From the human T2T-CHM13v2.0 reference genome, Homo sapiens: a stretch of 64,000 nt of DNA. This document shows positions 42,929 through 64,000 of this stretch, in pieces. The notes beneath the pieces are model-generated. The model had not been told where the DNA came from and ran no database searches. It saw only the letters and a program-made list of their open reading frames with translations. Both the position numbers and the translations under genes were made by a program. How positions within the stretch are numbered: position 1 is the first letter of the stretch; every line of letters starts with the position of its first letter. The DNA lies in assembly GCF_009914755.1 (NCBI RefSeq), contig NC_060934.1; one strand, 5' to 3'.

Positions 42929-45900
42929 ATGACAGGATCAAATTCACACATAACAATATTAACTTTAAATGTAAATGGACTAAATGCTCCAATTAACAGA
43001 TACAGACTGGCAAATTGGATAAAGATTCAAGACCCATCAGTGTGCTGTATTCAGGAAACCCATCTCTTGTGCAGAGACACACATAGGCTCAAAATAAAGG
43101 GATGGAGGAAGATCTACCAAGCAAATGGAAAACAAAAAAAGGCAGGGGTTGCAATCCTAGTCTCTAATAAAACAGACTTTAAATGAAAAAAGATCAAAAG
43201 AGACAAAGAAGGCCATTGCATAATGGTAAAGGGATCAATTCAACAAGAAGAGCTAACTATCCTAAATATATATGCACCAAATACAGGAGGCCACAGATTA
43301 ATAAAGCAAGTCCTTAGAGACCTACAAAGAGACTTAGACTCCCACACAATAATAATGGGAGACTTAAACACCCCACTGTCAACATTAGACAGATCAACGA
43401 GACAGAAAGTTAACAAGGATATCCAGGAATTGAACTCAGCTCTGCATCAAGTGGACCTAATAGACATCTACAGAGCTCTCCACCCCAAATCAACAGAATA
43501 TACATTCTTCTCAGCACCACATCGCACTTATTACAAAATTGACAACATAGTTGGAAGTAAAGCACTCCTCAGCAGATGTAAAAGAACAGAAATTATAACA
43601 AACTGTCTCTCAGACCACAGTGCAATCAAACTGGAACTCAGGATCAAGACACTCACTCAAAACTGCTCAGCTACATGGAAACTGAACAACCTGCTCCTGA
43701 ATGACTACTGGGTACATGACAAAATGAAGGCAGAAATAAAGATGTCCTGTGAAACCAATGAGAACAAAGACACAACATACTAGAATCTCTGGGACACATT
43801 CAAAGCAGTGTGTAAGGGAAATTTACAGCAATAAAAGCCCACGAGAGAAAGCAGGAAAGACCTAAAATTGACACCCTAACATCACAATTAAAAGAACTAG
43901 AGAAGCAAGAGCAAACACATTCAAACGCTAGCAGAAAGCAAGAAATAACTAAGATCAGAGCAGAACTGAAGGAAATAGAGACACAAAAAACCCTGCAAAA
44001 CAATCAATGAATCCAGGAGCTGGTTTTTTGAAAGGATCAACAAAATTGATAGACTGCTAGCAAGACTAAGAAAGACAAAAAGAGAGAAGAATCAAACAGA
44101 TCCAATAAAAAATGATAAAGGGGATATCACCGCCAATGCCACAGAAATACAAACTACCATCAGAGAATACTATAAACACTTCTACACAAATAAACTAGAA
44201 AATCTCAAAGAAATGGATAAATTCCTTGACACATACACCCTCCCAAGACTAAACCACGAAGAAGTTGAATCTCTGAATAGACCAACAACAGGATCTGAAA
44301 TTGTGGCAATAATCAATAGCTTACCAACCAAAAAGAGTCCAGGACCAGATGGATTCACAGCCAAATTCTACCAGAGGTACAAGGAGGAATTGGTACCATT
44401 CTTTCTGAAACTATTCCAATCAATAGAAAAAGAGGGAATCCTCCCTAACTCATTTTATGAGGTCAGCATCATCCTGATACCAGAGCCGGGCAGAGACACA
44501 ACCATAAAAGAGAATTTTAGACCAATATCCTTGATGAACATTGATACAAAAATCCTCAGTAAAATACTGGCAAACTGAATCCAGCAGCACATCAAAAAGC
44601 TTATCCACCATGATCAAGTGGGCTTCATCGCTGGGATGCAAGGCTGGTTCAACATACACAAATCAATAAAGGTAATCCAGCATACAAACAGAACCAAAGA
44701 CAAAACCACATGATTATCTTAATAGATGCAGAAAAGGCCTTTCACAAAATTCAACAACCCTTCATGCTAAAAACTCTCAATAAATTAAGTATTGATGGGA
44801 CATATCTCAAAATAATAAGAGCTATCTATGACAAACCCACAGCCAATATCATACTGAATGGGCAAACACTGGAAGCATTCCCTTTGAAAACTGGCACAAG
44901 ACAGGGATGCCCTCTCTCACCACTCCTATTCAACATAGTGTTGGAAGTTCTGGCCAGGGCAATCAGGCAGGAGAAGTAAATAAAGGGTATTCAATTAGGA
45001 AAAGAGGAAGTCAAACTGTCCCTATTTGCAGATAACGTGATAGTATATCTAGAAAACCCCATCATCTCAGCCCAAAATCTCCTTAAGCTGATAAGCAACT
45101 TCAACAAAGTCTCAGGATACAAAATCAATGTGCAAAAGTCACAAGCATTCTTATACACCAATAACAGACAAACAGAGAGCCAAATCATGAGTGAACTCCC
45201 ATTCACAACTGCTTCAAAGAGAATAAAATACCTAGGAATCCAACTTACAAGGGATGTGAAGGATCTCTTCAAGGAGAACTACAAACTACTGCTCAATGAA
45301 ATAAAAGAGGATACAAACAAATGGAAGAACATTCCATGCTCATGGGTAGGAAGAATCAATATCATGAAAATGGCCATACTGCCCAAGGTAATTTATAGAT
45401 TCAATGCCATCCCCATCAAGCTACCAATGACTTTCTTCACAGAATTGGAAAAAACTACTTTAAAGTTCATATGGAACCAAAAAAGAGCCCGCATCGCCAA
45501 GACAATCCTAAGCCAAAAGAACAAAGCTGGAGGCATCACACTACCTGACTTCAAACTATACTACAAGGCTACAGTAACCAAAACAGCATGGTACTGGTAC
45601 CAAAACAGAGATATCAACCAATGAAACAGAACAGAGCCCTCAGAAATAATACCACACACATCTACAACCAGCTGATCTTTGACAAACCTGAGAAAAACTA
45701 GAAATGAGGAAAGGATTCCCTATTTAATAAATGGTGCTGGGAAAACAGGCTAGCCATATGTAGAAAGCTAAAACTGAATCCCTTCCTTACACCTTATACA
45801 AAAATTAATTCAAGATGGATTAAAGATTTAAATGTCAGACCTAAAACCATAAGAGCCCTAGAAGAAAACCTAGGCATTACCATTCAGGACATAGGCACAG

Positions 45901-61394: not shown

Positions 61395-64000
61395 TTATAC
61401 TTTAAGTTCTAGGGTACATGTGCACAACGTGCAGGTTTGTTACATATGTATGCATGTGCCATGTTGGTGTGCTGCACCGATTAACTCATCATTCACATTA
61501 GGTATATCTCCCAGTGCTATCCATCCCCCCTCCCCCCACCCCATAACAGGCCCCAGTGTGTGATGTTCCCCACCCTGTGTCCAAGTGTTCTCGTTGTTCA
61601 ATTCCCACCTATGAGTGAGAACATGCGGTCTTTGGTTTTCTGTCCTTGCGATAGTTTGCTCAGAATGATGGTTACCAGCTTCATCCATGTCCCTACAAAG
61701 GACATCAACCCATCCTTTTTTATGGCTGCATACTATTCCATGGGGTATATGTGCCACATTTTCTTAATCCAGTCTATCATTGTTGGACATTTGGGTTGGT
61801 TTCAAGTCTTTGCTATTGTGAATAGTGCCACAATAAACATACGTGTGCATGTGTCTTTATAGAAGCATGATTTATGATCCTTTGGGTATATACCCAGTAA
61901 TGGGGTCACTGGGTCAAATGGTATTTCTAGTTCTAGATCCTTGAGGAATCGCCACACTGTCTTCGACAATGGTTGAACTAGTTTACAGTCCCACCAACAG
62001 TGTAAAAGTGTTCCTATTTCTCCACATCCTCTCCAGCACCTGTTGTTTCCTGACTTTTTAATGATCACCATTCTAACTGGTGTGAGATGGTATCTCATTG
62101 TGGTTTTGATTTGCATTTCTCTGATGGCCAGTGATGATGAGCATTTTTTCATGTGTCTGTTGGCTGCATAAATGTCTTCTTTTGAGAAGTGTCTGTTCAT
62201 ATCCTTCGCCCATTTTTTGATGGGGTTGTTTGATTTTTTCTTGTAAATTTGTTTAAGTTCTTTATCGATTCTGGATATTAGCCCTTTGTCAGATGGGTAG
62301 ATTGAAAAAATTTTCTCCCATTCTGTAGGTTGCCTGTTCACTCTGATGGTAGTTTCTTCTGCTGTGCGGAAGCTCTTTAGTTTAATTAGATCCCATTTGT
62401 CAATTTAGGCTTTTGTTGCCATTGCTTTTGGTTTTTAACTCATGAAGTCCTTGCCTGTGCCTATGTCCTGAATGGTACTGCCTAGGTTTTCTTCTAGGGC
62501 TCTTATGGTTTTAGGTCTGACATTTAAATCTTTAATCCATTCTTGAATTAATTTTTGTATAAGGTGTAAGGAAGGGATTCAGTTTTAACTTTCTACATAT
62601 GGCTAGCAAGTTTTCCCAGCACCATTTATTAAATAAGGAATCCTTTCCTCCTTTCTTGTTTTTGTCAGGTTTGTCAAAGATCAGATGGTTGTAGATGTGT
62701 GTGGTATTATTTCTGAGGGCTCTGTTCTGTTTCATTGGTTGATATCTCTGTTTTGGTACCAGTACCATGCTGTTTTGGTTACTGTAGCCTTGTAATATAG
62801 TTTGAAGTCAGGTAGCATGATGCCTCCAGCTTTGTTCTTTTGGCTTAGGATTGTCTTGGCGATGCGGGCTCTTTTTTGGTTCCATATGAACTTTAAAGTA
62901 GTTTTTTCCAATTCTGTGAAGAAAGTCATTGGTAGCTTGATGGGGATGGCATTGAATCTATAAATTACCTTGGGCAGTATGGCCATTTTCATGATATTGA
63001 TTCTTCCTACCCATGAGCATGGAATGTTCTTCCATTTGTTTGTGTCCTCTTTTATTTCATTGAGCAGTGGTTTGTAGTTCTCCTTGAAGAGATCCTTCAC
63101 ATCCCTTGTAAGTTGGATTCCTAGGTATTTTATTCTCTTTGAAGCAATTGTGAATGGGAGTTCACTCATGATTTGGCTCTCTGTTTGTCTGTTATTGGTG
63201 TATAGGAATGCTTGTGATTTTTGCACATTGATTTTGTATCCTGAGACTTTGCTGAAGTTGCTTATCAGCTTAAGGAGATTTTGGGCTGAGACAATGGGGT
63301 TTTCTAGATATACAATCATGTCATCTGCAAACAGAGACAATTTGACTTCCTCTTTTCCTAATTGAATACCCTTTATTTCCTTCTCTTGCCTGATTGCCCT
63401 GGCCAGAACTTCCAACACTATGTTGAATAGGAGTGGTGAGAGAGGGTATCCCTGTCTTGTGCTCGTTTTCAAAGGGAATGCTTCCGGTTTTCGCCCATTC
63501 AGTATGATATTGGCTGTAGGTTTCTCATAAATAGCTATTATTATTTTGAGATATGTCCCATCAACACCTAGTTTATTGAGAGTTTTTAGCATGAAGGGCT
63601 GTTGAATTTTGTGAAAGGCCTTTTCTGCATCTATTGAGATAATAATGTGGTTTTTGTCTTTGGTTCTGTTTATATGATGGATTACATTTATTGATTTGTG
63701 TATGTTGAACCAGCCTTGAATCCCAGGGATGAAGCCAACTTCATCACGGTGGATAAGCTTTTTGATGTGCTGCTGGATTTGTTTCACCCTTATTTTATTG
63801 AGGATCTTTGCATTGATGTTCATCAGGGATATTGGCCTAAAATTCTCTTTGTTTGTTGTGTCTCTTCCAGGCTTTGGTATCAGGATGATGCTGGCCTCAT
63901 AAAATGAGTTAGGGAGGATTCCCTCTTTTTCTATTGATTGGAATAGTTTCAGAAGGAATGGTACCAGCTCCTCCTCATACCTCTGGTAGAATTCGGCTGT
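61395..64000 (-). mobile_element. L1PA5-like element (copy B), runs off the window end; ORF2 disrupted
   Basis: 363-aa RT-containing ORF at 62732-63823 with intact FADD. Its 3' ~1.5 kb is nearly identical to 45.4-46.96 kb, including the aaagtataa-caactg junction. Confidence 0.94.

What the first reader, a model, noticed from the sequence alone, without database searches (positions are those of the whole stretch)
45400..63000. Multi-kb inverted duplication of a composite L1PA-(TA)n-oldL1-(TA)n-L1PA unit flanking the inverted segment
Seen: ~45.4-49.15 kb and ~59.25-63.0 kb are reverse complements that share one-off junctions. These are the tail-less L1 end aaagtataa|caactg, both microsatellites, the internal deletion junction of the old L1, the same 5' truncation of the 1.1-kb L1, and private variants (RDINQ* stop, FSIYP, RIDKEL). 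Independent insertions cannot reproduce these. Inference: a single reciprocal crossover would not duplicate DNA. The pattern needs two non-reciprocal junctions, L1A into L1B on the left and the L1A tail into L1C on the right. That fits a replication-based double template switch, or two different inversions later recombined. The event built its own long near-perfect inverted repeats, a substrate for recurrent re-inversion.
Basis: partly seen in the sequence, partly recalled or inferred. Interest (0 to 1): 0.75.

Follow-up and report, generated by a model that had tools for sequence, protein, structure and literature searches.

The report
Self-made mirror repeat around ape inversion
In an intron of the human gene CTNNA3, a 3.8-kb piece of old LINE-1 DNA sits in two mirror-image copies around a flipped 9-kb segment that likely corresponds to an already catalogued African-ape inversion; the copies were likely made by recombination repair between neighbouring LINE-1s, which have likely kept swapping short stretches since, so it is a tidy case of known processes rather than a new system.

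Summary
Window 45313-49159 and 59227-63043 are a true inverted duplication: core 4/1263 substitutions, found twice in the genome. A target-site duplication and a split old L1 show that the 9.3-kb spacer is inverted and that the right arm was the donor. The inversion likely equals chr10_inv15 (PMC9712629 Table S5, African-great-ape ancestor); my hg38 conversion rests on recalled exon coordinates. (1) Both outer L1s are full length. (2) A second 1.03-kb near-identical tract (43027-44054) was copied the same way. (3) The arms carry two ages of homogenisation, about 1.2-1.8% and about 0.3% (p about 1e-4). (4) The right junction holds a 77-bp patch identical to an L1 205 kb away, and its motifs occur only three times genome-wide, all inside CTNNA3. 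Best mechanism (0.5): one double-strand-gap repair with crossover, whose ends paired with two staggered L1s, followed by later conversion. I found no record of human polymorphism. Verdict: known inversion and known processes, with an undescribed anatomy.

The parts
40804..40817 (+). 5' copy of the L1A target-site duplication (14 bp tested)
   Evidence: occurs once on + here and once on - at 58852-58865 in 103 kb
40818..45312 (+). L1A: full-length younger L1PA, native 5' UTR, ORF1 and most of ORF2; acceptor element
   Evidence: A-type at 97 of 104 diagnostic columns in 40830-43026 and 13 of 18 in 44055-45320
43027..44054 (+). second conversion tract: L1B sequence written into L1A; its partner lies at extended 65329-64302, just beyond the window
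   Evidence: 3 substitutions in 1028; B-type at 13 of 17 columns in both arms; 26 shared private alleles
45313..46963 (+). left arm: copied 3' part of L1B; the L1A-to-L1B switch lies in 45313-45501
   Evidence: B-type at 24 of 28 columns; 29/1643 substitutions to the right arm
46964..47031 (+). left arm: first microsatellite, replacing the L1B tail
47032..48294 (+). left arm: old-L1 core with an internal deletion
   Evidence: 4/1263 substitutions to 61321-60059; 2 copies in the genome
48295..48399 (+). left arm: second microsatellite
48400..49522 (+). L1C, 1.1-kb 5'-truncated L1PA with its own tail; duplicated up to 49159
49540..49930 (+). 3' end of the old L1, single copy; in relatives it follows the core directly
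   Evidence: collinear with the core in 5 of 6 old-L1 relatives
49523..58851 (.). unique spacer, inverted relative to the ancestral arrangement
   Evidence: target-site duplication on opposite strands and split old L1; published orientation in outgroups
58852..59125 (-). native L1A 3' end, tail and 3' copy of its target-site duplication
   Evidence: 11/233 substitutions to L1C
59149..59226 (-). 77-bp foreign L1 patch at the L1C-to-L1A-tail junction
   Evidence: 0/77 to the L1 at C10:68.240 Mb, 3/77 to the L1 at C10:67.768 Mb, 14/77 to L1C; motifs occur 3 times in the genome
59227..63043 (-). right arm: L1C, microsatellite, old-L1 core, microsatellite, L1B 3' part; native site of the unit
61392..64000 (-). 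L1B: full-length older L1PA continuing to extended 67517, inserted in the old L1, which continues beyond it
   Evidence: B-type at 14 of 18 columns in the unconverted 3' flank

Best explanation
[quoted passage not shown] Shown: the ancestral layout was L1A(+), spacer, then an old L1(-) holding L1C and L1B. L1B's 3' end and L1C are direct repeats 2.5 kb out of register, both homologous to L1A's 3' end. Copying ran from right to left. About 1.3 kb of L1A is gone, for a net gain of about 2.5 kb. Inferred: that duplication and inversion were one event; that later non-crossover conversion re-homogenised the core and wrote the 1.03-kb second tract; and that a short patch moved in cis among three L1s of CTNNA3. 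No function is implied: the structure is intronic and likely neutral.
For: The target-site duplication lies on opposite strands at 40804 and 58852, and the old L1 is split with its 5' part on - and its 3' end on +. Both shared tracts carry L1B-type alleles, 24 of 28 and 13 of 17 columns. The two outer parts of the unit are of similar age, 29/1643 vs 8/683, Fisher p=0.36. Differences fall evenly on both arms (15 left common, 13 right common, 1 tie), as expected for mutation after copying. Divergence of 1.77% (95% CI 1.2-2.5) fits the published lineage, the African-great-ape ancestor, given recalled human-chimp (about 1.2%) and human-gorilla (about 1.6%) divergences. The core (0.32%) and second tract (0.29%) are younger, p=1.4e-4 and 3.6e-4. 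Inverted repeats give both conversions and inversions in yeast (PMC8748988 passages).
Against: One genome cannot separate this from a two-step history or a replication template switch, because all give the same sequence. The copied tract (3.8 kb, including 1.4 kb with no homologue in L1A) is long: PMC3961182 says mammalian tracts are rarely over 1 kb, though longer ones are reported. L1A and L1B differ by about 7.6%, which hinders strand exchange (established knowledge). The lower core divergence could partly be rate variation; C vs core is only p=0.03. Only 3 B-type relatives were aligned, and relatives were chosen by 5' UTR similarity, so the 5' assignments are partly circular. The match to chr10_inv15 uses a recalled offset. 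No ape sequence was seen.
Confidence: 0.5

Rival explanations
1. Two steps: an ordinary L1-L1 crossover inversion (L1A x L1B or L1A x L1C) and, before or after it, a long non-crossover conversion that copied the unit into the other arm.
For: Separate conversions clearly happened here later: the second tract and the young core. Inversion brings no new homology but keeps the arms paired substrates.
Against: It needs two rare events in the same interval; the duplication age fits the inversion's published lineage. An inversion as young as the core (0.3%) would conflict with the African-great-ape assignment unless it recurred.
Confidence: 0.25
2. One reading: a stalled or broken fork switched template twice by L1 homology, possibly three times if the foreign patch was picked up in the same event.
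For: It gives the same two junctions. CTNNA3 lies in fragile site FRA10D (PMC4104741 passage). The right junction coincides with a patch identical to an L1 205 kb away. Fork barriers induce inversions at inverted repeats in yeast.
Against: The junctions lie in long homology, not microhomology. The patch may predate or postdate the event and simply have stopped exchange at its edge. The 155-bp identical run with the donor is not unusual by length alone: among 190 pairs of relatives the median longest run is 133 and the maximum 233.
Confidence: 0.14
3. One reading: two independent inversions (L1A x L1B and L1A x L1C) segregated together and recombined in the spacer.
For: It reproduces both junctions exactly (logic).
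Against: It needs two inversions of one segment to co-segregate, plus a crossover within 9.3 kb; no tool result supports it specifically.
Confidence: 0.09
4. Assembly artefact (false duplication).
For: The region is repeat-rich and no reads were seen.
Against: The arms differ by 29+4+8 substitutions, several indels and different microsatellite arrays, which a copied contig would not show; CHM13 is effectively haploid (recalled). The exon spacing across this intron differs by only 11 bp from recalled GRCh38 coordinates (plus recall).
Confidence: 0.02

Closest known systems
chr10_inv15 (PMC9712629 Table S5: hg38 chr10:67559060-67583808, CTNNA3, lineage AGA, also cited to Maggiolini 2020 and Porubsky 2020)
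   Same: Likely this very inversion: it maps to window 41379-66127 with my recalled offset, in the range I had predicted before the search.
   Different: It is listed with no segmental duplications at the breakpoints; the rows I saw say nothing of the duplication, the junctions or conversion.
L1 recombination-mediated inversions (Lee 2008, PMC2603318)
   Same: Inverted L1 pair, chimeric elements at both breakpoints.
   Different: The junctions are not reciprocal, three L1s take part, and sequence is gained; that paper reports accompanying deletions (12 of 49). This locus is not its one chr10 entry.
Inverted-repeat (NAHR) polymorphic inversions of InvFEST type (PMC3961182, PMC13629690)
   Same: Multi-kb, 98-99.7% identical inverted repeats around a short spacer.
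   Different: Not found among the 612 candidate regions by coordinate prefix; here the repeat was made by the rearrangement itself.
Non-allelic gene conversion between retrotransposons (PMC8230782)
   Same: Short tracts moved between neighbouring copies.
   Different: That paper cites a range of about 10 kb for Alus; the L1 patch here links copies 205 and 677 kb apart.
Multi-invasion-induced rearrangement (PMC10499017)
   Same: Several repeats are engaged and two chimeric elements result.
   Different: The chimeras are not a matched pair, and no flanking conversion tract could be tested.

Membership tests
L1 recombination-mediated inversion | Oppositely oriented L1s span both breakpoints | tested here: met
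L1 recombination-mediated inversion | Breakpoint elements are chimeric | tested here: met
   left A/B and right C/A-tail
L1 recombination-mediated inversion | Single reciprocal crossover, no gain of DNA | tested here: not met
   junctions at different L1 positions and partners; core duplicated
L1 recombination-mediated inversion | Ancestral orientation in outgroup species | tested here: inconclusive
   published table row only, linked by a recalled coordinate offset; no ape sequence seen
Non-allelic gene conversion | Tract of near identity bounded by divergent flanks | tested here: met
   3/1028 inside vs 97/1269 and 256/2047 outside; 0/77 vs 45/668 and 12/232 for the patch
Non-allelic gene conversion | One-way transfer, donor unchanged | tested here: met
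   both arms B-type in both tracts; direction of the 77-bp patch not resolved
Recurrent polymorphic inverted-repeat inversion | Both orientations segregate, on shared haplotypes | not testable with these tools
   no population data; no entry found
Multi-invasion-induced rearrangement | Matched chimeric repeats with a flanking conversion tract | tested here: inconclusive
   two chimeras, not matched
Staggered-break (non-homologous) inversion with breakpoint duplications | Breakpoints outside homology, joined end to end | tested here: not met
   both switches lie in-register within L1 homology; definition recalled, related papers seen only as a search listing

The most novel reading that the evidence does not exclude
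The L1s of CTNNA3/FRA10D form a long-range conversion network in cis. The inversion was one three-template repair event that drew on an L1 205 kb away, built its own inverted repeat, and left arms that still exchange sequence and could re-invert undetected in humans.
Probability: 0.17. Interest if true: 0.65.

Novelty: new variant of a known kind. Interest (0 to 1): 0.4.

Why it matters
It is a well-resolved example of how a lineage-specific inversion listed as having no segmental duplications can create its own multi-kb inverted repeat out of L1 copies. Because the repeat is made wholly of L1, duplication-based candidate lists would tend to skip it (selection rules in PMC13629690). The genome-unique patch shared by three L1s across 677 kb suggests conversion between L1s reaches further in cis than the roughly 10 kb cited for Alus. 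That could be tested genome-wide and would affect the dating of L1 copies. No effect on CTNNA3 is shown.

Tried and rejected
False duplication: rejected on the differences between arms. Independent insertions: rejected on shared junctions and private alleles. Residual L1A mosaic as the cause of the 1.8%: rejected because the differences are symmetric. L1D as a wholesale copy of L1B: rejected, 218/3331 differences, like unrelated relatives at 220/3330. A young inversion at core age: disfavoured by the published lineage. Length of the 155-bp run as proof of conversion: not supported by the control; the claim rests on the private alleles. Locus searches without a hit: paper search CTNNA3 + inversion + inverted repeats (1 paper listed, not opened); supplements of PMC13629690, PMC10150506, PMC2603318 and PMC11393467 (one file unreadable). 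The search terms may miss other coordinate formats. Not seen: Porubsky 2020 and 2022 journal versions, the ape-genome tables and the macaque supplement; these may describe the locus in more detail.

Full report
Observation. Self-BLAST finds one 5186-bp inverted alignment, 44357-49522 against 64000-58866, at 95.7%. Global alignment splits it into a near-identical block, 45313-49159 against 63043-59227, and ordinary L1-L1 flanks. Substitutions are 29/1643 in the L1B 3' part, 4/1263 in the old-L1 core and 8/683 in L1C, against 97/1269 and 26/340 outside. The core has two near-100% places in the genome; the next is 81% (40 of 24918 candidates scored). The second microsatellite differs internally between arms.

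Anatomy beyond the window. I extended the sequence to 103 kb. L1A (5' end near 40818) and L1B (5' end near extended 67517, minus strand) are both full length. L1A's 14-bp target-site duplication occurs once on + at 40804 and once on - at 58852, behind the tail at 58866, so that tail is L1A's own and the spacer has been flipped. The old L1 gives independent proof. Its 5' part lies beyond L1B on -, and its 3' end lies at 49540-49930 on +, each single copy. In relatives these pieces adjoin the core: the 3' piece in 5 of 6 and the 5' piece in 5 of 6. The ancestor was therefore L1A(+), spacer, and one old L1(-) holding L1C and L1B. The locus lies between the CTNNA3 exon at 21822-21988 and an exon found at extended 89187-89379; by recalled numbering this is intron 3.

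Direction of copying. I fetched 20 relatives of L1A and 4 of L1B, chosen by 5' UTR match, and kept 17 and 3; L013, L020, L022 and L033 were dropped because their top alignment was under 5 kb. At 167 diagnostic columns the left element is A-type at 97 of 104 sites in 40830-43026, B-type at 13 of 17 in 43027-44054, A-type at 13 of 18 in 44055-45320 and B-type at 24 of 28 in 45321-46963. The right arm was thus the donor twice. Subfamily names such as L1PA are recalled, not from a call.

Ages. In the L1B part the 29 differences fall 15 and 13 on the two arms, with 1 tie, so they arose after copying. The L1B and L1C parts do not differ in divergence (p=0.36). The core and the second tract are younger than the L1B part (p=1.4e-4 and 3.6e-4); C against core is weaker (p=0.03). 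Intervals are 1.77% (1.18-2.53), 1.17% (0.51-2.31), 0.32% (0.09-0.81) and 0.29% (0.06-0.85). I infer an old copying event and at least one later round of conversion.

The right junction. Identity between the L1C copies ends at 59227; the next 77 bases differ at 14 sites. A genome search with 59140-59240 found a 100% match at C10:68239809 and a 95% match at C10:67768405; all other scored hits were 93% or lower. Two motifs from the patch each occur exactly 3 times in 3.1 Gb, at those two places and here, all inside CTNNA3. Inside the patch the differences are 0/77 and 3/77; outside they are 45/668 and 12/232 for the near L1, and 59/671 and 35/232 for the far one. Of 3 control 101-mers from unconverted parts, none had a 100% non-self match or a local best hit; their best were 99, 97 and 93% on other chromosomes (candidates scored each). 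Against over-reading: the 155-bp identical run is within the range of unrelated pairs (median 133, maximum 233), three controls are few, and neither the direction nor the date of the patch is resolved. A third local L1, L1D (36070-39428), also shares a genome-unique motif with both L1B copies (3 hits, all in the window), though it is no closer to L1B overall.

Mechanism. L1B's 3' end and L1C are direct repeats 2.5 kb out of register, and both match L1A's 3' end. If L1A breaks there, one end can pair with L1B and the other with L1C. Gap filling then copies everything between, and crossover resolution inverts the spacer (established double-strand-break repair model, recalled). That one event yields both junctions, the loss of about 1.3 kb of L1A and the gain of about 2.5 kb. 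I give it 0.5. An artefact is unlikely (0.02). The long tract and the 7.6% divergence between partners count against any pure recombination model.

What is known. From recalled exon coordinates I placed the locus at hg38 chr10:67.56-67.59 Mb. The supplement of the gibbon Strand-seq paper (PMC9712629; I saw table rows and passages) lists chr10_inv15 at 67559060-67583808, in CTNNA3, with no segmental duplications at the breakpoints and lineage AGA, which I read as the African great ape ancestor named in the main text. That fits the 1.2-1.8% age, given recalled ape divergences. I found no entry in the 612 inverted-repeat candidates of PMC13629690 (supplement search and passages), in PMC10150506 (supplement search and passages), in PMC2603318 (supplement search and passages) or in PMC11393467 (supplement search and passages). 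Of PMC8748988, PMC3961182, PMC8230782 and PMC4104741 I saw passages; of PMC10499017 the outline and one section; of PMC7605249 and PMC12058530 nothing usable. Ten paper searches listed no paper that evidently describes the duplication or the patch. The Porubsky 2020 and 2022 tables and the ape-genome tables, which I could not see, may do so.

Verdict. The inversion appears to be catalogued and the processes are known. The self-made inverted repeat, its repeated conversion and the long-range L1 patch are what I could not find in print. New variant of a known kind; interest 0.4.

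Noticed in passing
window 36056-39440: L1D, a 3.36-kb 5'-truncated L1 on - with a clean 14-bp target-site duplication. It shares a genome-unique 3' UTR motif and scattered rare alleles with L1B, which suggests older local conversion.
   Followed up: partly
L037:2530-4940 (C10:68.2395-68.2419 Mb): The L1 that shares the 77-bp patch has its 5' part in the opposite orientation to its 3' part, like a twin-primed insertion.
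   Followed up: no
L038 (C10:67.7665-67.7688 Mb): An older L1, about 11% from all relatives, carries the same patch with 3 differences and may be its original source.
   Followed up: partly
window 42296, 44206-44207, 44743, 45264: Isolated rare alleles shared by L1A and L1B outside the two large tracts, in identical runs of 35-77 bp; possible micro-conversions.
   Followed up: partly
window 59632, 59726, 59912-59923: The right L1C copy carries a 23-bp deletion, a 4-bp deletion and a small deletion-substitution cluster that the left copy lacks.
   Followed up: no
window 40270-40544: Tandem duplication of a 137-bp unit (94%) about 270 bp upstream of L1A.
   Followed up: no
window 33400-33554 and 34743-34896; 32937-33032: A 155-bp inverted pair at 93.5% and a 96-bp imperfect palindrome.
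   Followed up: no
window 12123-12485 / 14069-14455 and 20147-20537: A direct repeat pair at 83% and a tandem pair of about 190 bp at 85%.
   Followed up: no
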